Notes: generated from the sequence alone by a model not told the origin. Shown: positions 17,905-42,777, numbered from the stretch's first letter. The stretch: 64,000 bases of DNA from Candidatus Aminicenantales bacterium (GCA_049512315.1 JBEKXF010000030.1:1-64000); one strand, 5' to 3'. Program-made: numbers and translations.

Positions 17905-19341
<1,437 letters not shown>

Positions 19342-19382
19342 GGTTGTGATCCGGCGGGTTTGACACCGCTCAAAAAAACTTC

Positions 19383-19432
19383 TTGACAAGCCTTTTTTTT
19401 CATGTTAAATGACTTAGTCTATTGACTTAGTC
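19383..19432 (+). promoter_or_regulatory. Promoter and tandem operator upstream of the Rrf2 gene
   Basis: TTGACA at 19383; TGACTTAGTC at 19410-19419 and again at 19423-19432. Confidence 0.6.
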
Positions 19433-19451
19433 GACAAAGCGAGGCGCTCCG

Positions 19452-19898
19452 ATGAGGCTTTCGACCAAAGGCGAATACGCCAGCCGGGCCATGCTCGAAC
19501 TTTCGCTCCGGTTCGAGGACGGCCCCCTCCATGTCCGGGAGATCGCCAAGGCCCAGAACATCCCCCTCCACTTCCTCCAGCAGATCCTTCTTCTCCTCAA
19601 GCGGGCCGGCTATCTAAAGAGCCGGAAAGGTCAGAAAGGCGGCTATGCCCTGGCCAAGCCGCCTTCAGCCATCAACGTGGCCGAGGTTATCCGGGTGATG
19701 GACGGCCCCCTGGCCCCCATCGACTGCGTCAGCGTCATGGCCCACGAGACCTGCCCTATGGAAGGCACGTGCGGCCTGCGCTGGCTGTGGAAGGACGTCC
19801 GGGATTCCGTGGCGGGGATCCTGGAGCAGACGACGTTCGCCGACCTGGTCAAGAAGAGCAAAGTTCCGGGCGGGGGCAGGAAAAAGCGGGGGATTTGA
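19452..19898 (+). CDS. Rrf2-family transcriptional regulator (IscR/CymR-like, three Cys)
   Basis: MRLSTKGEYA, SRKGQKGGYAL, DGPLAPIDC...C...C. Confidence 0.92.
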   Translation: MRLSTKGEYASRAMLELSLRFEDGPLHVREIAKAQNIPLHFLQQILLLLKRAGYLKSRKGQKGGYALAKPPSAINVAEVIRVMDGPLAPIDCVSVMAHETCPMEGTCGLRWLWKDVRDSVAGILEQTTFADLVKKSKVPGGGRKKRGI

Positions 19899-19949
19899 GT
19901 GAGACGCAGGCGCTCCGGATTCCGATCCCTGATGAAAAGAGAAAAAACA

Positions 19950-20951
19950 ATGACGGAAAAGACGAAGAAAACGCCGCTCAGGCGGGCTGGGCTTGCCCTT
20001 CTGGCCGCGGCCCTTCTGGCCGTGTCCGCGCCGGCCGAGGACAAGGAGGATTCCCCGCTCGTGACCGCCGCCAAGCCTCTGAAGCTCAGCGGCTACGCCC
20101 AGCTTCTGGCCGTCGATTGGGACAAGGGCGTGGACAGCTTTTCCCTCCGGAGGGCCCGCCTCACCCTGGCCGGGGAGATCGTCAAGAACCTCAGGTTCAA
20201 GGTCACCGCGGACCTCGTGAAATCGCCGGCGCTCCTCGACGCCCTCGTCGAGTTCGAGCCGTCCAAGATCATCGGGTTGCGGTTCGGCCAGTTCCTCGTT
20301 CCCTTCAGCCTCGAGAGCGTCACGCCGACCTCCGAGCTTGACATGGTCAACCGGTCGGCTGTCGTGGAGGCGCTCGCGGCCGGCCGCGACAACGGGTCCT
20401 CGGGAAGGGACATCGGGACCGTGGTTTACGGGAGCTATGCGATCGTGGATTACGCCGTGGGGCTTTTCAACGGCGCCGGCATCAACAAGGCCGACACGAA
20501 CAGCCATAAGGACTGGAGCGGCCGGGCCGTCATTCACCCCTTCAAGTTCCTCGCTATCGGAGGCTCCCTTTATCGGGGCAAACAGAGTCCTTCGGCCGAT
20601 GTCCCGCTCGTCAAGCGCGACAAGGAAGGACTCGAAGCGGCCCTCGTCTTCAAGAGGGTTTCCCTCAAAGGCGAATACATCCACGCCTTGGACGACCTGG
20701 TATCCAAGGCCGGCTGGTATATTCAGGCCGGCTTGTTTGCCCTGCCCGATAAGCTCCAGGCTCTTCTCCGCTATGATTCACTCGACCTCGACAGGTCCGT
20801 CGCCGGCGACGCGAAAAACGTGATCGCCCTGGGCCTCAACTGGTTCATCCTGGGCCGGACTAAGCTCCAGGTAAACTATGAGATCCACAGGCTCGAAGGA
20901 GGAGGACGGGAGAAATCCGGCCTCCTGGCCCAGTTCCAGGCCGCTTTCTAA
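19950..20951 (+). CDS. Outer-membrane porin, OprO/OprP-like
   Basis: Signal peptide; FSLRRARL, GQFLVPFSLE, GRDIG; terminal Phe; start may be 19932. Confidence 0.8.
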   Translation: MTEKTKKTPLRRAGLALLAAALLAVSAPAEDKEDSPLVTAAKPLKLSGYAQLLAVDWDKGVDSFSLRRARLTLAGEIVKNLRFKVTADLVKSPALLDALVEFEPSKIIGLRFGQFLVPFSLESVTPTSELDMVNRSAVVEALAAGRDNGSSGRDIGTVVYGSYAIVDYAVGLFNGAGINKADTNSHKDWSGRAVIHPFKFLAIGGSLYRGKQSPSADVPLVKRDKEGLEAALVFKRVSLKGEYIHALDDLVSKAGWYIQAGLFALPDKLQALLRYDSLDLDRSVAGDAKNVIALGLNWFILGRTKLQVNYEIHRLEGGGREKSGLLAQFQAAF

Positions 20952-20973
20952 GGGACGTTGAAAGGAAGACGCC

Positions 20974-21957
20974 ATGAAAAAAACAGTTTTGATCCTGATC
21001 CTGGTTCTCGTGTCGGCCGCGCCCGGCCCATCGGCTCAGGTTCCGGCTCAGGGCCGGGAGGTCGCGGCGGAGCTCCGCGGCAGCCTGTCCCTCTCCGGCG
21101 CCTGGGCCCTCTATCCCATGGCCCTCAAGTGGGCGGAGGAATTCCAGAAGCTCCACCCCGGCGTCCGGATCGATGTCCAGGCCGGCGGCGCGGGCAAGGG
21201 GATCGCGGACGTCCTGGCCGGGGCGGTCGATGTCGGCATGGTCTCCCGGGAGATCAACCCGGCCGAGACCGCCAAGGGCGCCCTGGCCGTGGCCGTCACT
21301 AAAGACGCGGTCGTGCCGACGATCAGCCGGAAAAACCCGTTCCTGGCCGAGCTCCTCCGCCGCGGCCTCAGGAAAGAGGAATTCACCGCGATCTGGATCA
21401 CGAAGGCCGTCGATTCGTGGGCCGGTCTCTTCGGCAGGAAGGGGCCCTCTCCCATCCACGTCTATACCCGGTCGGACGCCTGCGGCGCCGCGGAAACCTG
21501 GGCCGCCTACCTCGGCCAGCGGCAGGAAGACCTCACGGGGGTCGGCGTTTACGGCGACCCCGGCGTCGCCGAGGCCGTCAAGCGCGACCCGCTCGGGATC
21601 GGCTACAACAACGTCAATTTCGCCTACGACGCGAAGACGAAAAAGCCGGTCGAGGGACTGGAGGTCTGCCCCATCGACCTCGACGGCAACGGGACGCTCG
21701 ACCCGCAGGAGCACGTCTATGCCACGCGCGACGACATCATCCGGGCCATCGCCGCGAACGTCTATCCTTCCCCGCCGGCCCGGGAGCTCTATTTCGTCCT
21801 GAAAGGGCGGCCGCGGAGCCCGCTTCTTTTCGAGTTCATGAAGTGGGTCCTGACCGACGGCCAGAAATACGTGCCGGAGATGGGCTATCTCCCCCCCGGG
21901 CCGGAGCGGATCGCGCAGGGCTTCCGGGCCGTCGGAGGAGCGGACAAGGGAAAATGA
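20974..21957 (+). CDS. PstS-like periplasmic oxyanion-binding protein (divergent binding motifs)
   Basis: Signal peptide; SGAWALYP, GGAGKG, VGMVSR, RSDACGA, YPSPPARELY; sits in a pstCAB-like operon. Confidence 0.8.
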   Translation: MKKTVLILILVLVSAAPGPSAQVPAQGREVAAELRGSLSLSGAWALYPMALKWAEEFQKLHPGVRIDVQAGGAGKGIADVLAGAVDVGMVSREINPAETAKGALAVAVTKDAVVPTISRKNPFLAELLRRGLRKEEFTAIWITKAVDSWAGLFGRKGPSPIHVYTRSDACGAAETWAAYLGQRQEDLTGVGVYGDPGVAEAVKRDPLGIGYNNVNFAYDAKTKKPVEGLEVCPIDLDGNGTLDPQEHVYATRDDIIRAIAANVYPSPPARELYFVLKGRPRSPLLFEFMKWVLTDGQKYVPEMGYLPPGPERIAQGFRAVGGADKGK

Positions 21958-22841
21958 AACGGCTTCTCAAGGACGTCTGGGCCCGCCGGGGGATGTCCCT
22001 GCTGGCCCTCCTTCCCGGGCTCCTCGTCCTGCTCATCGTGCTCGGGCTTTTCCTCAAGTCGAAGGCCATCCTGGGGGTCCAGCCCCTGTCCCACCTCCTC
22101 CTCGGCACGGACTGGCACCCTCTCAAGGGACAGTTTGGTCTTTTCCCGTTCATCTCGGGCACAGTCTGGGTCACGGTAACGGCCCTTGTTCTCGCGGTCC
22201 CGGTCTCGATCCTGACGGCCATCTACCTTTCAGAGTTCGCCCCGCGCTTCGTCAGGGAACTCGCCCGGCCCGTCATCGACCTCCTGGCTGGGCTTCCGTC
22301 CGTCGTCTTCGGAGTCTGGGGCGTCATTCTCATCGTCCCCTTCGTCGGCGACGTCCTCGCCCCGCTCTTCGGGGCATCCTCGAGCGGCTACAGCGTTCTC
22401 GCCGGCGGGATCGTTCTGGCCATCATGATCTTTCCGACCATCATCCACGTATCCCTGGAGGTCTTCGCTTCGATCCCGTATTCCCTGCGCGAGGCCTCGC
22501 TCTCGCTGGGCGCGACCCGGTGGGAAACGGCCCGCCACGTCGTCCTGAGGAAGGGGAGCCAGGGCGTCCTGGCCGCGTCCGTCCTCGGCTTTTCCCGGGC
22601 CTTCGGGGAAACCATGGCCGTCCTGATGGTGGCCGGGAACGTCCCCGTCGCCCCGAAGTCCCTCTTCGACCCCGGCTATCCTCTTCCCGCCCTCATCGCC
22701 AACAATTACGGGGAGATGATGTCCATCCCCCGCTACGATTCCGCCCTCATGCTGGCCGCCCTGGTCCTCCTCGCGGTCGTTCTCTTCTTCAACATCCTGG
22801 CCCACCGGATCCTGGTCCGGGTCGAGAGGAGGTCCCGGTGA
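21954..22841 (+). CDS. pstC: PstC-like ABC permease
   Basis: LAGLPSVVFG, EAA loop REASLSLGATRWE, RAFGETMAV. Confidence 0.85.
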   Translation: MKRLLKDVWARRGMSLLALLPGLLVLLIVLGLFLKSKAILGVQPLSHLLLGTDWHPLKGQFGLFPFISGTVWVTVTALVLAVPVSILTAIYLSEFAPRFVRELARPVIDLLAGLPSVVFGVWGVILIVPFVGDVLAPLFGASSSGYSVLAGGIVLAIMIFPTIIHVSLEVFASIPYSLREASLSLGATRWETARHVVLRKGSQGVLAASVLGFSRAFGETMAVLMVAGNVPVAPKSLFDPGYPLPALIANNYGEMMSIPRYDSALMLAALVLLAVVLFFNILAHRILVRVERRSR

Positions 22842-23716
22842 TGACCAACGGCCTCAACGGGACCCTGAAAAAAAGGAAAAGGGTCGAGCTCTTTTTCAAG
22901 GTCCTGATGATCGGCTCCACGGCCCTGGTCATCGGGAGCCTCATCGTCATCGTCGGGACCATCGTCTGGAAGAGCGTCCCCGCCCTGACCCTGTCCATGG
23001 TCACGAGGACGCCCAAGGGCGGGTTTTACCTGGGGAAAGAGGGCGGGATCCTGAACGCCATCGCGGGGTCGCTTGATCTAGCGCTGGGGGCGACGGCTCT
23101 GGCCTTCCTCCTGAGCCTGCCCCTCGCCCTCTACCTGAACCTCTACAAGGGCCGCGGCTCGAAGACGGCCGCCTGGACCCGGTTCTCGATCGACGTCCTC
23201 TGGGGCGTGCCGTCCATCGTCTACGGCGCTTTCGGCTTCCTGGTCATGATGATGATCGGCCTCCGGGCCTCACTTCTGGCCGGGATCGTGACCGTCGCCC
23301 TCCTTGAGTTCCCGATCATGAGCCGGGCCATCGACGAGGTCGTCCGCCTGGTCCCGAAAGAGCTCAGGGAGGCCTCGGATTCGCTCGGCGCCACCCGCCT
23401 CGAGACGGCGGTCCGGGTCGTCGTCCGGCAGTCCGTGCCCGGGATCCTGACGGCCGTGCTGATGGCTTTCGGCCGGGGCATCGGCGACGCGGCCTCCGTC
23501 CTTTTCACGGCCGGCTTCACGGACCGGGTGCCGGCTTCCCTCCTCGACCCGGCGGCGACGCTGCCCCTGGCCATCTTCTTCCAGCTCGGAACGCCGTTCC
23601 CCGAGGTCCAGCAGAGGGCCTATGCCTCGGCCGCGGTCCTGACCCTGATCATCCTCGCGGCGAGCGTCACGGGGAGACTCGTCAGCCGGAGGTACGCGAA
23701 GCATGTCGTCAAGTAA
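22838..23716 (+). CDS. pstA: PstA-like ABC permease
   Basis: GGILNAIAGS, GVPSIVYG, REASDSLGATRLE; GTGA overlap with pstC. Confidence 0.85.
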   Translation: MMTNGLNGTLKKRKRVELFFKVLMIGSTALVIGSLIVIVGTIVWKSVPALTLSMVTRTPKGGFYLGKEGGILNAIAGSLDLALGATALAFLLSLPLALYLNLYKGRGSKTAAWTRFSIDVLWGVPSIVYGAFGFLVMMMIGLRASLLAGIVTVALLEFPIMSRAIDEVVRLVPKELREASDSLGATRLETAVRVVVRQSVPGILTAVLMAFGRGIGDAASVLFTAGFTDRVPASLLDPAATLPLAIFFQLGTPFPEVQQRAYASAAVLTLIILAASVTGRLVSRRYAKHVVK

Positions 23717-23719
23717 AGG

Positions 23720-24493
23720 ATGGGCGCGCCGATGAACGAGATGACCCCGATCAGCATCCGGAACCTGAGCGTTTTCTACGGCGGTCATCGCGTCCTGAAG
23801 GACGTCAACCTCGATATCCCGGCCAGGAAGATCACCGTCATCATCGGGCCCTCCGGCTGCGGGAAGACGACCCTCCTCAAGTCCCTGAACCGCCTGCTCG
23901 ACCCCGTCGAGGGGGTCCGGGTCGAAGGGGAGGTCCTGGTCGACGGCGAGGACATCTACGGGCCCCGGACCGAGGTGACCCGGATCCGGAAGAAGATGGG
24001 CCTCCTCTCCCAGAAACCTCAGGTCCTGCCCATGTCGATCTATGATAACGTCGCCTACGGCCCGAGGATCCACGGCCTCCGCACCCGGGCGGAGCTCGAC
24101 CGGACCGTCGAGCACTATCTTAGGGTTTCGGGGCTCTGGGAGGAGGTCAGCGACCGGCTCCACCATCCCGCCTCCGAGCTTTCCGTCGGCCAGCAGCAAC
24201 GCCTCTGCCTGGCCCGGGGCCTGGCCGTCGAGCCCGAGATCATCCTCGGCGACGAGCCGACCTCGGCCCTGGACCCCCAATCCAGCCAGAACGTGGAGCG
24301 GCGGCTGATGGAGCTCAAGAAGGATTACACCGTCGTGGTCGTGACCCACATCCTCCGGCAGGCCCGAAGGATCGCCGACCACCTCGCCTTCCTTTACCTC
24401 GGAGAGCTCGTCGAAGACGGGCCGGCGGCCGAAGTTTTCCAAAACCCCCGGAACGCGCGGACGCGGGCCTACCTGACCGGCGAGATCAGCTGA
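23720..24493 (+). CDS. pstB: PstB-like ABC ATPase
   Basis: GPSGCGKTT, LSVGQQQRLC, DEPTSALDP, VTH. Confidence 0.88.
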   Translation: MGAPMNEMTPISIRNLSVFYGGHRVLKDVNLDIPARKITVIIGPSGCGKTTLLKSLNRLLDPVEGVRVEGEVLVDGEDIYGPRTEVTRIRKKMGLLSQKPQVLPMSIYDNVAYGPRIHGLRTRAELDRTVEHYLRVSGLWEEVSDRLHHPASELSVGQQQRLCLARGLAVEPEIILGDEPTSALDPQSSQNVERRLMELKKDYTVVVVTHILRQARRIADHLAFLYLGELVEDGPAAEVFQNPRNARTRAYLTGEIS

Positions 24494-24506
24494 GCCCAGC
24501 CCCGGC

Positions 24507-27401
24507 CTACATTTTGACCGAGCAGGTCATGAACCGCTGGAGGAAATTGAAGAAGTCGATCTCGTTGGCGGCGAGGCCGTGCTCGTAGACGTAGCGGGCG
24601 GCCAGGCGTGAGGCGAAGAGCGCCCGGAGGTAGGCCTCGGGCACGCGCTGGATGATCTTGCCGACGCCGAGCAGGTCGCAGAGCACGGGCGGGCAGCCGA
24701 CCTCGACGACCTTCTCGACGAGGGCCTTGTCCTCGAACAGGGCCGAGCCCATGATGCTGTCCTTGATGGCGTTGATCTTCTCGCTGACCATGTCGCTGAG
24801 GATGCTCCGGGGGATGCCCGTCCTCAGGTTCTCGCGCCAGAGGACGTCGAACTCCCGGCGGGCGTTGTCCGCGATGTACTCGATGTCCTCCTTGACGTAG
24901 GTCTTGCGGAAGTCCGAGATCTTCCCGTCCCGGACGACCATGAGCTCCTCGAACTCCTTATCGGTCATGGCCATGGCGGAGAGGACCTCGAGGGAAGATG
25001 AGGTGACCCCGCCCTTGTTGGCCGAGGCATCCTTGTACAGGATGACGCCCTTCTCCTCGAGCCTCAGCCGGGCTTGCTGGGTGATGAAGAGGTTGGCGCC
25101 CTCGACGATGACCTTGAAGCGGGGCTGGCCCTTCTCGTCGACCCATTCCGTCCAGTTGTTGATGTTGACCGACGACGGCCGCCCGCCGCAGGGGACGAAG
25201 ATGTCGGCCCGGAACTTGGGGTGAAGGTGGAAAGTGTTCCGGAACTCGAGCCCGTTCTCAACCCGCTCGCCGTCGGGGAGCTTGACGTCGGTCGCCTTGA
25301 TGGAAACGAAAAAGCCCTCCGCCGAGAGGAGTTTGATCTCGAAATGCTCGACCATTTTCCGGGACTTGGCCAGCCGGATGAGCTCCTTGCGGTTGAGACC
25401 CTGGGGGTCGTAGAGGACCCCGGAACCGTCGACGAGGGCCAGGGTCTTGTCCTTAGAGATGAGGATCTCGTTCGAGCCGAGGTCTCCGTCGGGCCCGCCC
25501 GTCATGACCTTGGTGATCTTGTCCTCCTTGAGGCCGAGCTTTTCCAGGGAGCCGAGGACGTACTCGTGGATCGAGCGGGTGGTCATGCCGTAAAGATCGT
25601 GGGGAATTCCCCCCATGGTCACGGGCTTGCCCGTCGTGAAGGCCTTCCAGAACTTGTAGCCGCGCTGGCGGGCCCTGAGGGCCGCCCACTCCATGAGGTC
25701 GGCCGTGCCCTCGTCGGGACCGAGGAAGAGAATGACGTCCTTCCCGTAATAATCGGTGACGGCGGGGTTGGGGAGCATGAGGTCGAGCAGGCCGTCGACG
25801 TACTTTTTGAAGGCTGCGACGGGTTGGTCCTGGAAGCCCCAGCGGAGGAGGATCGTGCCTTTGGACCCGCCCTCGGGGAGGTCCTTGTTCTTGCGCTGCT
25901 GGGTGGAGGCCAGGCCGTAGTTCTCGTCGAAGATGAAATCGGAGTTGTTGAGGTAGTTCTGGTAGTGGGAGGAGCGGACGATCCGGATGCCGCCGCGGGC
26001 GATGTCCCGGAAGCGGATGTGGAAGCCCCGGAACTCGCGGCCGATGATGTGGAAGAGACCGAAGGGCTCGAGGGGATAGTCCACCCGGTTGAGGAAGTCC
26101 GGCCGGTACATGAAGGAGATGGAGGTCTTCTCCTTGATGTAGAAATTCGTCTTGAGGACGGTCTCGACGAAGAGGGCCCCCGACAGGAAGACGCTGCGGT
26201 CGGCCTCGACGACGATCTTGCGGGCCATCTCCTTCCGGAGCGCGGCCAGGCCGGCGGCGATGTCGTGGTCCTTGCCGGCCGGGTTGTACTTCTTGTCGAA
26301 GAGCGCGAAGAGCCGGTGGATCCACTCGTGGTTGTCGATCAGGGCGTCCCAGACCCTGGGCTCGGTGTAGGTCTCCTTGGCCAGGCGGGTCCTGAGCTCC
26401 CGCAGGATCCCCTGGAGCTCGGGCGAGTCCTTGAGGGCCTCGGCCAGCCTGAGGTACTCCTCGTTGTAGCCGCTCAGGAACTGGTGGGCGAAGCTCCAGA
26501 GGGCGGTCCCGAAGACCATCTCCTGGGCCGAGAGCTTTCCCTCCCGGAAGAGGGAGGACAGGGGACAGGTCGAGATGACGTAGATGAGGCTGATGTCCTC
26601 GATGAGGTCCTGAAGCTTGCCCTTGGCCGGGGCCTCGTCGAGATAGTGGGTGTAGATCGTCTTTCCGTTGGCGAAATGCTCGATGTATTTCCGATTGCTG
26701 TGAAGCCCGTGAGAATTGATGACGTCGGAGACGTTCGTGAAGAAGCGGGGGCTCGCGTCGGTGTTGGTCACGACGGAGATCCGGATCTCCTTCTCCTCGG
26801 GGACCGGCGTGACATCAATGAGCGGGCTCTCCCAGCCTTTGGCCCGCTCGAGGAGCTCTTGGGTGCGCTTGAAGGCCTCCTTGGAGACGGTGGCCATGAA
26901 CATCTTGTCGGCGACTTTCCGGAGGTCGGTCTCGTCGGGTGGGACCTTGACCGCCGGGAATTCCGGCTTGTCCACGATGTACATCCGGAGGTGCTCCAGG
27001 CCGCGGGCCTTGCGCAGGGTCCGGTAGGACTGGAGCCGGTAATGAGGGTACCGGTCCTCGATCCTCTCCTCAATCTCGATCGCCCGGGGGTGGGACTCCT
27101 CGACGAGGTACAGGGCCTCGTTGTCGTGCTCGGTCATGAAATCGATCCTGATGGCTTTCTCGCCGCGGAGGATGGCCATGATCTCGGCGGCCCGGAGGGC
27201 CTCGATGTGCCGGGCGATCGTTTCGAGCGGGGTCGTGATGAAGTAGGACTCGCTCATCCCGAGCCCGGTGACGAACAGCTCGATCTCTTCGCGGACGCAG
27301 GCTTCGGGGTAAAAATCGTCCTTGACGATCAGGGCCTCGAGCTTTGCGAGCTGGCCTTCGGTGAAAACCGTATCGGCGGCGATTTGCTTGAGAGTTTTCA
27401 T
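24507..27401 (-). CDS. Large (964 aa) NAD-specific glutamate dehydrogenase
   Basis: FRDIARGGIR, KNKDLPEGGSKG, GPDEGTA, GGPDGDLGSNE, DASANKGGVTSSS. Confidence 0.9.
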   Translation of the reverse strand: MKTLKQIAADTVFTEGQLAKLEALIVKDDFYPEACVREEIELFVTGLGMSESYFITTPLETIARHIEALRAAEIMAILRGEKAIRIDFMTEHDNEALYLVEESHPRAIEIEERIEDRYPHYRLQSYRTLRKARGLEHLRMYIVDKPEFPAVKVPPDETDLRKVADKMFMATVSKEAFKRTQELLERAKGWESPLIDVTPVPEEKEIRISVVTNTDASPRFFTNVSDVINSHGLHSNRKYIEHFANGKTIYTHYLDEAPAKGKLQDLIEDISLIYVISTCPLSSLFREGKLSAQEMVFGTALWSFAHQFLSGYNEEYLRLAEALKDSPELQGILRELRTRLAKETYTEPRVWDALIDNHEWIHRLFALFDKKYNPAGKDHDIAAGLAALRKEMARKIVVEADRSVFLSGALFVETVLKTNFYIKEKTSISFMYRPDFLNRVDYPLEPFGLFHIIGREFRGFHIRFRDIARGGIRIVRSSHYQNYLNNSDFIFDENYGLASTQQRKNKDLPEGGSKGTILLRWGFQDQPVAAFKKYVDGLLDLMLPNPAVTDYYGKDVILFLGPDEGTADLMEWAALRARQRGYKFWKAFTTGKPVTMGGIPHDLYGMTTRSIHEYVLGSLEKLGLKEDKITKVMTGGPDGDLGSNEILISKDKTLALVDGSGVLYDPQGLNRKELIRLAKSRKMVEHFEIKLLSAEGFFVSIKATDVKLPDGERVENGLEFRNTFHLHPKFRADIFVPCGGRPSSVNINNWTEWVDEKGQPRFKVIVEGANLFITQQARLRLEEKGVILYKDASANKGGVTSSSLEVLSAMAMTDKEFEELMVVRDGKISDFRKTYVKEDIEYIADNARREFDVLWRENLRTGIPRSILSDMVSEKINAIKDSIMGSALFEDKALVEKVVEVGCPPVLCDLLGVGKIIQRVPEAYLRALFASRLAARYVYEHGLAANEIDFFNFLQRFMTCSVKM

Positions 27402-40976: not shown

Positions 40977-42777
40977 GGAGGGACTCCTTGCACTCGGGCT
41001 GGCGGTTGGCCGCCGTGCAACCGTCCTGGATGGCCTCCCGGAGATCGAAGTCCGGGACGAAGTCGACGCCCTTCCGGACCTTCGCCTCATAGAGCTCGCG
41101 GAAGCTCTGGAGGGTCGTCAGGATCGGGTTGGGCGAAGTCTGGCCCAGCCCGCACCGGCTCGTCGTCTTGACCAGCTTCCCCCAATCCTCGAGGTCCTTG
41201 AGGTCCTGGTCCGTGCCCCGGCCCTGGACGACCTTTTCGAATTTCTTTTTCAGGAGGACGTTGCCCGCCCGGCAGGGGGTGCACCAGCCGCAGGACTCCT
41301 CGACGAAAAAGTCCATGAAATTGCCGACGATCTCAAAGATGTCGCGCTCCGGCCCGAAGATGATGACCGAGCCGCCCGTCGAGAGGTCCGAGAAACAAAT
41401 CTTTCTCTGGAAGCCGGCCCGCGAGAGGCAGGTCCCGGAGGGGCCGCCGACCTGGACGGCCTTGGCGTCCGGGGCCCCGGCCATCTTCAGGAGGTCCTCG
41501 ACGGTCAGGCCGAACTCGACCTCGTAGACGCCGGGAGAGGCGCAGTCCCCGGAGACGCTTAGGAGCTTGGTCCCCGAAGACTTCGCCGTTCCCATGGTCT
41601 TGAACCAGGCCGCGCCGTGAACGAGGATCTGGGCGGCCGTAGCCAGGGTCTCCACGTTGTTGACGGTCGTCGGCTGGTTGAGATAGCCGACCTGGACCGG
41701 GAACGGCGGCCTGTCACGCGGCTCTCCCCTTTTCCCCTCGGCCGATTCGAGAAGGGCGGATTCCTCCCCGCAGATGTAGGCGCCCGCGCCTGATTTGATC
41801 GTGACGTCGAAGTCGAAACCCGGCGCCCCCGCGATCTTCTTCCCCAGGACGTTCTCCCGGCGAAGGCCGTCGAGGACGGATTCGAGGTAAGGCTTCAGAT
41901 AAGAGTATTCGGCCCGGAGATAGAGGACACCTTCCCTGGCGCCGACCGCGTAGCCGGCCACGGCCATGCCCTCGAAGAGGAGCCGCGGCAGCTCGGTCAG
42001 GATGACCCGGTCCTTGAACGTGCCTGGCTCTCCCTCGTCGGCGTTGCAGACGACATAGTGCCGGTCGGCCTTTTCCTTCCGGCAGAAATCCCACTTGAGC
42101 CCCGTCGGGAAGCCGGCCCCGCCGCGGCCCTGAAGGCTCGACTTCTTGACCTCGTTGATGACCCCTTCGGGTTTCATCGCGATGGCTTTCCTGACGGCGG
42201 ACCCGGACTCGAACGGGCCGAAAAGGACCGGGCCCCGCTTCCGGATGTTGTTCGAAACCATAGCCCGGACGAGGTCGGACTGGTTGGCGCCGTCTCCGAA
42301 AGCTTTGACCATGTCCCGGGCGGACCGGCCGGCCCGCAGGTCCCGGACGATGTCCCTGGCCTTTTCGGCCGTTAAATTCGTGAAGACGACGCCATTGACG
42401 ATGGCCGAGGGCTCCTGGTCGTTCATCCCGATGCAGGACGTCGGGAAGAGCCCGAGGAGGCCGTCCGCCGCGACCTCGCCAAACCGGCAGCCCGCCTCCT
42501 CCTCGAAGGCCCGGGCCACGGCGGCCCGGCCTTTCATCCGGGAGGTGATGGAGTCGTTCAGGAAGATGGCAGCCGTCCCTCGGGGAGCAAGGGAAAAGAA
42601 GTGGTAGTAGGTCACGACGCCCCGGACCTCGGCCTCGGAAAGCTTGAGGTGGCGGGCGATCTCGGACACGGCCTCGGCGGGAACGCGGCCGGCCCAGGCC
42701 TGGACGTCCCGGACGATGTCCAGGAGCCTCGACGGGTCCTTCCGGTGCTTGAGGATGATCTCTTTATAGTGTTCCAT
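40969..42777 (-). CDS. hoxF: Diaphorase flavoprotein, NuoE-NuoF fusion
   Basis: N-terminal NuoE-like domain with degenerate Cys ligands; GRGGAGFPTG, EGEPGTFKDR, GAGAYICGEE, ESCGWCTPCR. Confidence 0.92.
   Translation of the reverse strand: MEHYKEIILKHRKDPSRLLDIVRDVQAWAGRVPAEAVSEIARHLKLSEAEVRGVVTYYHFFSLAPRGTAAIFLNDSITSRMKGRAAVARAFEEEAGCRFGEVAADGLLGLFPTSCIGMNDQEPSAIVNGVVFTNLTAEKARDIVRDLRAGRSARDMVKAFGDGANQSDLVRAMVSNNIRKRGPVLFGPFESGSAVRKAIAMKPEGVINEVKKSSLQGRGGAGFPTGLKWDFCRKEKADRHYVVCNADEGEPGTFKDRVILTELPRLLFEGMAVAGYAVGAREGVLYLRAEYSYLKPYLESVLDGLRRENVLGKKIAGAPGFDFDVTIKSGAGAYICGEESALLESAEGKRGEPRDRPPFPVQVGYLNQPTTVNNVETLATAAQILVHGAAWFKTMGTAKSSGTKLLSVSGDCASPGVYEVEFGLTVEDLLKMAGAPDAKAVQVGGPSGTCLSRAGFQRKICFSDLSTGGSVIIFGPERDIFEIVGNFMDFFVEESCGWCTPCRAGNVLLKKKFEKVVQGRGTDQDLKDLEDWGKLVKTTSRCGLGQTSPNPILTTLQSFRELYEAKVRKGVDFVPDFDLREAIQDGCTAANRQPECKESLHD

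What the first reader, a model, noticed from the sequence alone, without database searches (positions are those of the whole stretch)
19452..24493. Rrf2-led porin + Pst-like ABC importer that may not carry phosphate
Seen: Rrf2 (3 Cys), porin, PstS-like, pstC, pstA and pstB in one tight run. There is no phoU or phoBR in the window and I saw no Pho box. In the binding protein the Ser/Thr-rich phosphate-contacting motifs are changed: G-S/A-T to GAWA, GSG to GAG, RSDGSGT to RSDACGA. The ATPase signature is LSVGQ. Known: PstS relies on Ser/Thr hydroxyls, sulfate-type binders rely largely on backbone NH groups, and IscR/CymR-type Rrf2 proteins sense Fe-S or cysteine status. Inference: a Pst-derived importer re-purposed for a sulfur oxyanion (sulfate, thiosulfate, sulfite) or another anion under sulfur/Fe-S control, which pipelines would mis-annotate as phosphate transport.
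Basis: partly seen in the sequence, partly recalled or inferred. Interest (0 to 1): 0.75.

Follow-up and report, generated by a model that had tools for sequence, protein, structure and literature searches.

The report
Phosphate-type transporter that probably imports sulfate
This six-gene operon looks like a phosphate uptake system, but its binding protein has lost the phosphate-gripping residues and its relatives sit next to sulfate-activating genes, so it is most likely a widespread sulfate importer that databases label as phosphate transport.

Summary
Window 19452-24493 (+) holds one tight operon: Rrf2 regulator, OprO/P-type porin, PstS-like binding protein, PstC, PstA and PstB.

The binding protein scores far below the PstS cut-off (104 vs 206.6 bits). 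Four hydroxyl positions of canonical PstS are replaced (SGSTS>SGAWA, GSS>GAG, DGSGT>DACGA).

It belongs to a large conserved family: 196 clusters at 50% identity, and at least 565 species' genomes in many phyla. The family has its own co-evolving PstCAB lineage.
- PhoU lies beside it in 0 of 80 related loci.
- An Rrf2 gene lies just upstream in 45 of 64.
- In 10 of 80 loci, sulfate-activation genes (CysH-CysD-CysN, Sat, or CysC-CysD-CysN-sulfotransferase) adjoin it on the same strand.

In 201 Bacteroidales genomes, 68 of 71 carriers have CysD against 74 of 130 non-carriers. None of the 201 has a classical sulfate-binding protein.

The window's own genome has a canonical pst-phoU-phoRB locus, a second canonical pst, Sat plus APS kinase, and no SulP or Sbp.

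Best reading (about 0.68): a Pst-derived sulfate (possibly also thiosulfate) importer under an Rrf2 repressor. No binding or uptake assay exists, and three related genomes carry it without Sat or CysD.

The parts
19383..19432 (+). Candidate promoter (TTGACA at 19383-19388, AT-rich -10 around 19405-19411) followed by a tandem pair of 9-nt palindromes GACTTAGTC (19411-19419 and 19424-19432). This is the probable operator of the Rrf2 repressor.
   Evidence: Sequence read. GACTNAGTC occurs only at these two places in the 64-kb window. The same pair, 13 nt apart and 27-40 nt upstream of the Rrf2 start, is present in L008, L009, L010, L015, L027 and L078, with one copy in L007. That accounts for 13 of the 17 hits in 1.01 Mb of loci. 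The sigma-70 scan itself listed no promoter. The function is inferred.
19452..19898 (+). Rrf2-family transcription regulator, 148 aa, with Cys92-x8-Cys101-x5-Cys107; first gene of the operon.
   Evidence: PF02082, E 2.6e-38. It lies below the equivalog cut-offs of CymR (105 vs 195), IscR (99.6 vs 207.55), RirA and NsrR. The Cys triad is conserved in the Aminicenantes, Bacteroidales, Flavobacterium and Omnitrophota neighbours and absent in 8 of 51.
19899..20951 (+). Outer-membrane anion porin of the OprO/OprP family. The ORF starts at a GTG directly after the Rrf2 stop; the real start is probably ATG 19932 or 19950.
   Evidence: PF07396 Porin_O_P, E 5.2e-18. A homologous porin is in 23 of 80 loci. 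Others carry DUF2490 (8) or AlgE-like (7) barrels at the same place.
20974..21957 (+). Periplasmic binding protein of the PstS fold with an altered anion pocket (SGAWALYP, GGAGKG, TRSDACGAAETW); the proposed sulfate binder.
   Evidence: PF12849, 105 bits. TIGR02136 gives 104.3 vs a cut-off of 206.6, and TIGR00975 gives 66.2 vs 205. Motifs. AF2 model pLDDT 89.3; the nearest solved folds are all PstS at 24% identity or less.
21954..22841 (+). PstC-type permease (295 aa); its start overlaps the binding-protein stop by 4 nt.
   Evidence: TIGR02138, 266.7 bits, above the cut-off. It is 36-38% identical to the genome's canonical PstC paralogues, against 44-93% to the PstC of related loci.
22841..23716 (+). 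PstA-type permease (291 aa).
   Evidence: TIGR00974, 188.4 vs 193.45. It is 34-35% identical to the own paralogues, against about 50-70% to related loci of other phyla.
23720..24493 (+). PstB-type ATPase (257 aa) with the ABC signature LSVGQ.
   Evidence: TIGR00972, 337 vs 343.2. The signature is LS[IVLM]GQ in 61 of 66 related PstB, and LSGGQ in two of the three own canonical copies checked. It is 48-51% identical to the own paralogues, against 56-91% to related loci.

Best explanation
The operon encodes a complete envelope-spanning importer for sulfate, possibly also thiosulfate, that evolved from the Pst phosphate ABC transporter.

Proposed route: an OprO/P-type anion porin lets the anion through the outer membrane. 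The PstS-fold protein captures it in a pocket where the Ser/Thr hydroxyls are gone. That pocket is left with main-chain NH groups, the kept Ser91-Arg92 and Arg166-x-Asp168, and an aromatic residue (Trp44). A dedicated PstC/PstA/PstB lineage pumps the anion in.

In this Aminicenantes genome the sulfate would feed ATP sulfurylase plus APS kinase, that is PAPS for sulfation. In many Bacteroidota it would feed CysDN-CysH, that is cysteine synthesis.

The first gene, an Rrf2 protein, most likely represses its own operon. It would bind the tandem GACTTAGTC palindromes that overlap the promoter and release them when sulfur or Fe-S status is low.

Shown here: the gene content, the altered motifs, the family's size and conservation, the gene neighbourhoods and the co-occurrence. 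Inferred: the ligand, the direction of regulation and the signal.
For: 1. The binding protein fails the PstS cut-offs. It lacks the hydroxyl residues at four pocket positions that the genome's own canonical PstS paralogues and solved PstS keep.

2. Among 92 full-length representatives of the family, position 44 is W, F or Y in 59, position 172 is Ala in 60, and Arg166 and Asp168 are each kept in 79.

3. The family is large and distinct. PstC, PstA and PstB are much closer to those of related loci in other phyla than to the same genome's canonical copies.

4. PhoU is found in 0 of 80 loci. Rrf2 lies within 2.5 kb upstream in 45 of 64.

5. Sulfate-activation genes lie on the same strand next to the transporter in 10 of 80 loci. 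CysH-CysD-CysN lies downstream in L036, L042, L044, L052, L055, L060 and L068, with CysH at the contig end in L062. Sat lies downstream in L025. CysC-CysD-CysN-sulfotransferase lies upstream in L064. The names were confirmed above NCBIfam cut-offs for the L055 genes and the L025 Sat. A sulfatase follows in L015, L070 and L071.

6. In 201 sampled Bacteroidales genomes, 68 of 71 carriers have CysD against 74 of 130 non-carriers (odds ratio 17, Fisher p 5e-10). Only 3 of the 59 genomes without CysD carry it, whereas 34 of those 59 have SulP. None of the 201 has an Sbp/CysP-type protein.

7. It does not replace canonical PstS: 33 of 71 carriers have one against 26 of 130 non-carriers.

8. The own genome (96.6% complete) has pst-phoU-phoRB on C1, a second canonical pst on C8 and two PiT genes. 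It has Sat-APS kinase on C39 and no SulP or Sbp.

9. A conserved tandem palindrome sits at the promoter.
Against: Nothing here measures binding, transport or expression.

In the window's own class (121 Aminicenantia genomes), Sat is no more frequent in carriers (51 of 59) than in non-carriers (57 of 62).

Three genomes of one family (G209, G215, G221; 98-99% complete) carry the system but show neither Sat nor CysD. A fourth of that family, G232, also lacks Sat and was not tested for CysD. Sulfate would have no known use there.

The own genome has no PAPS/APS reductase and no sulfite reductase, so it cannot make cysteine from sulfate.

41 of 142 CysD-positive Bacteroidales have neither this system nor SulP, so other sulfate routes exist.

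38 of 71 Bacteroidales carriers have no canonical TIGR02136 PstS. One small Omnitrophota genome has this protein as its only PBP_like_2 hit.

PstC passes the PstC equivalog cut-off, the porin family is named phosphate-selective, and the pocket keeps S-R-E and R-x-D as canonical PstS does.

The co-occurrence statistics ignore shared ancestry. The Cys triad is absent from 8 of 51 partner Rrf2 proteins.
Confidence: 0.68

Rival explanations
1. It is still a phosphate importer: a third Pst system with a divergent PstS, expressed under redox or Fe-S control instead of the Pho regulon.
For: The fold and nearest solved structures are all PstS. PstC passes the PstC cut-off, and PstA and PstB miss theirs by only about 5-6 bits. 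The porin belongs to the OprO/P family. Ser91-Arg92 and Arg166-x-Asp168 are kept as in canonical type-2 PstS. 38 of 71 Bacteroidales carriers lack a canonical TIGR02136 PstS. One small genome has it as its only PBP_like_2 protein. Three Aminicenantia genomes have it without Sat or CysD.
Against: Four hydroxyl ligand positions are replaced by W, A/G, C and A across the closer family. PhoU is in 0 of 80 loci, and no PhoB/PhoR pair recurs next to it. It sits in operons with CysH-CysD-CysN or Sat in 10 of 80 loci. It is positively, not complementarily, distributed with canonical PstS. The own genome already has two canonical Pst systems and two PiT genes.
Confidence: 0.12
2. It imports another anion rather than sulfate itself. 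Candidates are thiosulfate only (the apolar W/A/C/A face would suit the outer sulfur), sulfite, selenate, or a phosphonate or phosphite whose non-oxygen substituent faces the aromatic residue.
For: The hydroxyls are replaced by apolar or aromatic residues rather than by other hydrogen-bond donors. Position 44 varies among W, F and Y, so ring character rather than the indole NH seems to be selected. Genomes of family f9 have the system but no Sat or CysD, which fits a sulfur source that needs no ATP sulfurylase; their locus lies beside MetH-like, SerC-like and SerA-like genes. Some Bacteroidales loci carry a second, tandem binding protein with other pocket residues. From memory, that recalls the Sbp/CysP pair for sulfate and thiosulfate in E. 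coli.
Against: CysD, CysN, Sat and CysH act on sulfate or APS/PAPS only; thiosulfate, sulfite and phosphonates do not need them. Yet these are the recurrent operon partners and the strongest genome-wide correlate. No phosphonate or phosphite catabolic gene was seen among the neighbours scanned.
Confidence: 0.15

Closest known systems
PstSCAB phosphate ABC importer (PhoT family), with an OprO/OprP porin as in the Pseudomonas and Xanthomonas pst clusters
   Same: The gene order is the same: porin, binding protein, two permeases, ATPase. The fold is PstS/PBP_like_2, the PstC score is above the equivalog cut-off, and the Ser-Arg and Arg-x-Asp pocket elements are kept.
   Different: The binding protein scores half the PstS cut-off. 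Four hydroxyl ligands are lost. The ABC signature is LS[IVL]GQ. There is no PhoU and no PhoBR link; an Rrf2 gene leads the operon. Sulfate-activation genes are the recurrent neighbours.
SulT sulfate/thiosulfate ABC importer (Sbp or CysP with CysT, CysW, CysA)
   Same: The proposed substrate is the same, as is the operon link to cysDN/cysH. Some loci have two tandem binding proteins, as E. coli has Sbp and CysP (the E. coli fact is recalled).
   Different: It is not homologous at family level. No TIGR00971 match was found in the genome or in 201 Bacteroidales. The permeases hit CysT/CysW models at only 26-47 bits against cut-offs of 246-329.
CymR, the Rrf2-type master regulator of cysteine and sulfur-source genes in Bacillus and Staphylococcus, and IscR
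   Same: It has an Rrf2 fold. CymR is its best-scoring NCBIfam equivalog model (105 bits). It is placed to control a sulfur-acquisition operon. It has an IscR-like three-Cys cluster region.
   Different: It scores below the cut-offs of CymR, IscR, RirA and NsrR. Its Cys spacing is C-x8-C-x5-C; IscR's C-x5-C-x5-C is recalled. That CymR has no such triad and works through CysK is also recalled, not tested. The operator GACTTAGTC x2 is specific to the Aminicenantes loci.
TupABC tungstate importer, a precedent for a PBP_like_2 protein binding an oxyanion other than phosphate
   Same: Another PBP_like_2 protein in the same genome (C7, about 99.4-100.4 kb) sits beside one permease, one ATPase and what read, by eye, as molybdopterin-synthesis genes, so I take it for TupA. 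This is an inference; no family scan was run on those neighbours.
   Different: Tup uses a single SulT-type permease. The window's system keeps the full PstC/PstA/PstB set.

Membership tests
PstS phosphate-binding protein (TIGR02136 / TIGR00975) | Score above the curated family cut-off | tested here: not met
   TIGR02136 gives 104.3 bits vs 206.6, and TIGR00975 gives 66.2 vs 205. The genome's C1 and C8 paralogues carry the canonical motifs.
PstS phosphate-binding protein (TIGR02136 / TIGR00975) | Type II periplasmic binding fold of the PBP_like_2 kind | tested here: met
   PF12849, 105 bits. AF2 pLDDT is 89.3. The top 40 or so Foldseek PDB hits are PstS proteins.
PstS phosphate-binding protein (TIGR02136 / TIGR00975) | Ser/Thr hydroxyl donors in the three anion loops (E. 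coli T10, S38, S139, T141; numbering recalled) | tested here: not met
   The aligned positions are W44, A73/G74, C170 and A172.
PstS phosphate-binding protein (TIGR02136 / TIGR00975) | Arg-x-Asp pair (E. coli R135/D137, recalled) and the Ser-Arg of type-2 PstS | tested here: met
   R166, D168, S91 and R92 are invariant in the 24-sequence family alignment.
PstS phosphate-binding protein (TIGR02136 / TIGR00975) | Membership of the Pho regulon: linkage to phoU/phoBR, or a Pho box | tested here: not met
   PhoU is in 0 of 80 loci by tblastn. The genome's PhoU is only on C1. A guessed Pho-box repeat is absent; that is a weak test.
PstS phosphate-binding protein (TIGR02136 / TIGR00975) | High-affinity, selective phosphate binding | not testable with these tools
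   This needs ITC or thermal shift on purified protein. The structure tools give no coordinates and offer no sulfate or phosphate ligand.
PstCAB membrane and ATPase components (PhoT family) | Equivalog scores for PstC, PstA and PstB | tested here: inconclusive
   PstC scores 266.7, above 196.45. PstA scores 188.4, below 193.45. PstB scores 337, below 343.2. They form a separate lineage from the genome's canonical copies.
SulT sulfate/thiosulfate ABC importer | Sbp/CysP-type binding protein and CysT/CysW permeases | tested here: not met
   No TIGR00971 hit was found in the genome. The permeases hit the CysT/CysW models far below cut-off.
SulT sulfate/thiosulfate ABC importer | Operon or regulon link to sulfate activation and reduction genes | tested here: met
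   10 of 80 related loci carry such genes. In Bacteroidales 68 of 71 carriers have CysD against 74 of 130 non-carriers. The link is not seen in the window itself; Sat and CysC lie on contig C39.
CymR / IscR subfamilies of Rrf2 | Score above the equivalog cut-off | tested here: not met
   CymR scores 105.4 vs 195, and IscR 99.6 vs 207.55.
Fe-S-binding Rrf2 regulators | Three conserved Cys in the C-terminal cluster-binding region | tested here: met
   C92, C101 and C107 are present here and in most partners, but absent in 8 of 51. Cluster binding itself was not tested.

The most novel reading that the evidence does not exclude
This would be an unrecognised third class of prokaryotic sulfate ABC importer, born from the phosphate Pst system rather than from SulT. 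It would be the main sulfate entry route in much of Bacteroidota, Aminicenantes, Planctomycetota, Omnitrophota and even ANME/Methanoperedens archaea. It is annotated everywhere as phosphate transport.

Its dedicated Rrf2 regulator would read cellular sulfur supply through occupancy of its own Fe-S cluster. Where two binding proteins stand in tandem, they would split sulfate from thiosulfate.
Probability: 0.3. Interest if true: 0.85.

Novelty: new variant of a known kind. Interest (0 to 1): 0.72.

Why it matters
Sulfate uptake is the first step of sulfur assimilation and of PAPS-dependent sulfation. Yet none of 201 sampled Bacteroidales genomes has the classical sulfate-binding protein, although 142 have CysD.

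If this family is the missing importer, two consequences follow.

First, hundreds of species' genomes and thousands of metagenome proteins are labelled 'phosphate transport' when they are not. That distorts phosphorus and sulfur budgets inferred from metagenomes of sediments, peat, guts and bioreactors.

Second, it gives a natural experiment in how a binding pocket switches between two near-identical tetrahedral anions: hydroxyls removed, an aromatic residue added, Arg-x-Asp kept.

It also gives a new Rrf2 regulon tied to sulfur supply. Cultured carriers exist (Flavobacterium restrictum, F. fructosi), so the claim is directly testable.

Tried and rejected
- Pho box: I derived a candidate repeat (TCCTTAA-N4-TCCTTAA) from the C1 pst promoter by eye and searched the window. 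The only match (3 mismatches) is at 42546, no more than chance gives. This is a weak test because the motif is my guess.
- Promoter and terminator scan of 19200-24700: no promoter passed the rule, and terminators were at chance level.
- Earlier notes of this scan: no look-alike by sequence, and two unrelated notes by words.
- Protein Atlas: only 'phosphate' names, and no structure held.
- Sat co-occurrence in Aminicenantia: no association (51 of 59 vs 57 of 62).
- Complementary distribution with SulP in Bacteroidales: not significant (28 of 71 vs 65 of 130).
- CysH-like protein query in Bacteroidales: 130 of 201 matched. I did not cross-tabulate it because weak paralogues blur the set.
- Pocket modelling: the AF2 model is confident, but no coordinates or sulfate/phosphate ligands are offered, so the pocket was judged from alignments only.
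- Literature: eight full-text searches found no paper describing a Pst-type sulfate importer or an Rrf2-pst link. I read passages of PMC5193443 (its Rrf2 and pst entries are unrelated rows of a fitness table). I read passages of PMC11535334 (a TauE-type sulfate transporter, nothing on Pst). Subscription journals, supplements and database re-annotations were not seen.
- Not run: complex prediction, sequencing-run look-up, read laying, a family tree with canonical PstS outgroups, and phylogenetically corrected statistics.

Full report
WHAT IS THERE

Window 19452-24493 carries six genes on the + strand, with no gaps larger than 22 nt and with overlapping stop and start codons.
- Rrf2 regulator, 19452-19898 (PF02082, E 2.6e-38).
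- Porin of the OprO/OprP family, 19899-20951 (PF07396, E 5e-18).
- PBP_like_2 binding protein, 20974-21957.
- PstC, 21954-22841.
- PstA, 22841-23716.
- PstB, 23720-24493.

Enolase lies upstream on the same strand. A large NAD-glutamate dehydrogenase converges downstream. Close relatives are named Candidatus Aminicenantes.

THE BINDING PROTEIN IS NOT A NORMAL PstS

It scores 104.3 bits on TIGR02136 (cut-off 206.6) and 66.2 on TIGR00975 (cut-off 205). PstC passes its cut-off, and PstA and PstB miss theirs by 5-6 bits.

I aligned it with solved PstS 4gd5 and 4exl and with the two canonical PstS paralogues of the same genome. The three anion loops read as follows.
- SGAWALYP where canonical proteins have SGSTS / GSTS.
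- GGAGKG where they have GSSAG / GGSS.
- TRSDACGAA where they have (R/E)EDGSGT / REEGSGT.
- Ser91-Arg92-Glu93 and Arg166-x-Asp168 are kept.

In recalled E. coli numbering, the hydroxyl donors T10, S38, S139 and T141 become W, A/G, C and A.

The AF2 model is confident (pLDDT 89.3). Its nearest solved folds are all PstS proteins at 24% identity or less, so no member of this family has a solved structure in that library.

IT IS A LARGE, CONSERVED FAMILY WITH ITS OWN TRANSPORTER

The best 120 hits are 65-93% identical, and where a source names them it calls them phosphate-binding or simply substrate-binding proteins.

Against 50%-identity representatives there are 196 clusters at E<=1e-30. Among 92 full-length representatives:
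- position 44 is W, F or Y in 59;
- position 172 is Ala in 60;
- position 170 is Cys in 31, Ser in 45 and Ala in 11;
- Arg166 and Asp168 are each kept in 79.

The best 80 loci come from Aminicenantes, Bacteroidales, Flavobacterium (cultured F. restrictum, F. fructosi), Planctomycetota, Omnitrophota, Kiritimatiellia, Ignavibacteriales, Spirochaetota and the archaea Methanoperedens and ANME-2.

The window's PstC, PstA and PstB are 36-38%, 34-35% and 48-51% identical to the same genome's canonical copies. They are mostly 50-70% identical to those of related loci in other phyla.

The ABC signature is LS[IVLM]GQ in 61 of 66 family PstB proteins. It is LSGGQ in two of the three canonical copies checked in the own genome; the third gave no match to the pattern.

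NEIGHBOURS

PhoU was found in 0 of 80 loci (tblastn with the genome's own PhoU). Clustering of all locus ORFs plus Pfam scans of recurrent clusters turned up no phosphate-regulon gene.

An Rrf2 gene lies within 2.5 kb upstream in 45 of the 64 loci that have at least 1800 nt of upstream DNA: 34 on the same strand and 11 divergent. The other 19 showed none with this query.

The outer-membrane gene varies: Porin_O_P in 23 loci, DUF2490 in 8, an AlgE-like barrel in 7.

The informative neighbours are sulfur genes.
- CysH, CysD and CysN follow PstB directly on the same strand in 7 of the 55 loci with at least 1500 nt downstream (L036, L042, L044, L052, L055, L060, L068). CysH sits at the contig end in L062.
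- ATP sulfurylase follows PstB in the Phycisphaerae locus L025.
- In the Rikenellaceae locus L064, APS kinase, CysD, CysN and a sulfotransferase precede the porin on the same strand.
- The names hold against NCBIfam cut-offs for the L055 genes and the L025 Sat.
- A sulfatase follows in L015, L070 and L071. A DsrE-like gene, an FGE-sulfatase gene and a Cys/Met PLP enzyme occur once each.

CO-OCCURRENCE

I sampled 201 Bacteroidales genomes. The sample is not corrected for shared ancestry, and the quality filter was not reported for these handles.
- 71 carry the family at E<=1e-120.
- 142 have CysD.
- 0 have an Sbp/CysP-type protein.
- 93 have SulP.
- 59 have a canonical PstS above cut-off.

Cross-tabulation:
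- CysD is in 68 of 71 carriers against 74 of 130 non-carriers (odds ratio 17, p 5e-10).
- Among the 59 genomes without CysD, only 3 carry the family, while 34 have SulP.
- SulP is, if anything, negatively linked to CysD (odds ratio 0.52).
- Canonical PstS is commoner in carriers (33 of 71) than in non-carriers (26 of 130), so the family does not stand in for PstS.

Results against my reading:
- 41 of 142 CysD-positive genomes have neither system.
- 38 of 71 carriers lack a canonical PstS.
- In the window's own class (121 genomes, 59 carriers), Sat is near-universal and unrelated to carriage: 51 of 59 against 57 of 62.
- Three genomes of one Aminicenantia family (98-99% complete) carry the system but show neither Sat nor CysD. 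They have two other PBP_like_2 proteins each. Their locus faces MetH-like, SerC-like, DUF1015 and SerA-like genes.

THE WINDOW'S OWN GENOME (3.55 Mb, 96.6% complete)

Contig C1 holds a canonical pstS, a pstCAB set and phoU. The flanking genes read, by eye and without a family scan, as a porin and a response-regulator/kinase pair.

C8 holds a second canonical pstSCAB, and C7 a TupA-like system beside what read by eye as Moa genes. There are two PiT genes.

No SulP, no Sbp, no PAPS-reductase-domain protein and no sulfite reductase were found.

There is an operon-like run of Sat, a phosphodiesterase-family protein, APS kinase, a sugar epimerase and UDP-glucose dehydrogenase on C39. There are also at least eight sulfatase homologues.

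So here, imported sulfate would serve PAPS synthesis and sulfation, not cysteine synthesis.

REGULATION

The Rrf2 protein scores below every named equivalog; CymR is best at 105 vs 195 bits.

Its C92-x8-C101-x5-C107 triad is conserved in the Aminicenantes, Bacteroidales, Flavobacterium and Omnitrophota partners. It is missing in 8 of 51 (Planctomycetota, Kiritimatiellia, Spirochaetota).

Between a TTGACA (19383-19388) and the start codon lie two GACTTAGTC palindromes 13 nt apart. These are the only GACTNAGTC sites in the window. The same pair stands at the same place in six related Aminicenantes loci. Bacteroidales loci have another palindrome (GTATTAATAC) in the divergent intergenic region.

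I infer an autoregulated repressor. The signal (Fe-S occupancy, cysteine status, redox) is not shown.

VERDICT

The best explanation is a Pst-derived sulfate importer, possibly also taking thiosulfate, led by an Rrf2 repressor (confidence 0.68). The rivals are a divergent phosphate importer (0.12) and another anion such as thiosulfate only (0.15).

I found no description of such a system in eight full-text searches or in the passages read. I could not see subscription journals or database re-annotations.

I rate it a new variant of a known kind, with interest 0.72.

Noticed in passing
L064:2686-11700 (Rikenellaceae MAG): One same-strand run holds APS kinase, CysD, CysN, a sulfotransferase, a porin and the Pst-like binding protein with PstCAB. 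This looks like a complete uptake-to-sulfation cassette.
   Followed up: partly
L095:202-2232, L096:208-2202, L097, L098 (Bacteroidales genomes G092, G081, G026, G142): Two binding-protein genes stand in tandem. One is the standard form (SGAFALYP / RSDACGA). The other is 30-33% identical with different pocket residues (for example HGANAVYP / RSDAGGAS). They may form a two-specificity pair.
   Followed up: partly
related loci L030, L034, L037, L039, L045, L061, L065, L079 and L031, L058, L072, L075, L076, L083, L084: The outer-membrane gene beside the transporter is swapped between three unrelated barrel families: Porin_O_P, DUF2490 and AlgE-like. This hints that DUF2490 is an anion channel.
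   Followed up: no
own genome, contig C39:9208-14692: Sat, a type I phosphodiesterase-family protein, APS kinase, an NAD epimerase and UDP-glucose dehydrogenase stand in a row. This suggests sulfated polysaccharide synthesis in this Aminicenantes genome, which also has at least 8 sulfatase homologues.
   Followed up: partly
own genome, contig C1:133100-133140 (upstream of the canonical porin-pst operon): There is a direct repeat TCCTTAA-TCAA-TCCTTAA with 11-nt period, a candidate Pho box for this lineage. It was read by eye and tested nowhere else.
   Followed up: no
own genome, contig C8:52069-53580: The second canonical pst locus carries two PstB genes in tandem, 48% and 51% identical to the window's PstB.
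   Followed up: no
L045, L061, L091 (and L065, L030): DUF1015, together with SerA-like and SerC-like genes, recurs next to the transporter in Planctomycetota and in one Aminicenantia family.
   Followed up: no
L046 and L051 (Methanoperedens, ANME-2 MAGs): Archaeal genomes carry the same binding protein (53-56% identity) with PstCAB and without an Rrf2 neighbour. This fits transfer between domains.
   Followed up: no
window 24507-27401 (-) and 17920-19341 (+): The large NAD-specific glutamate dehydrogenase and enolase flank the operon. They are conserved neighbours only within Aminicenantes: 6 loci for GDH and 8 for enolase.
   Followed up: no
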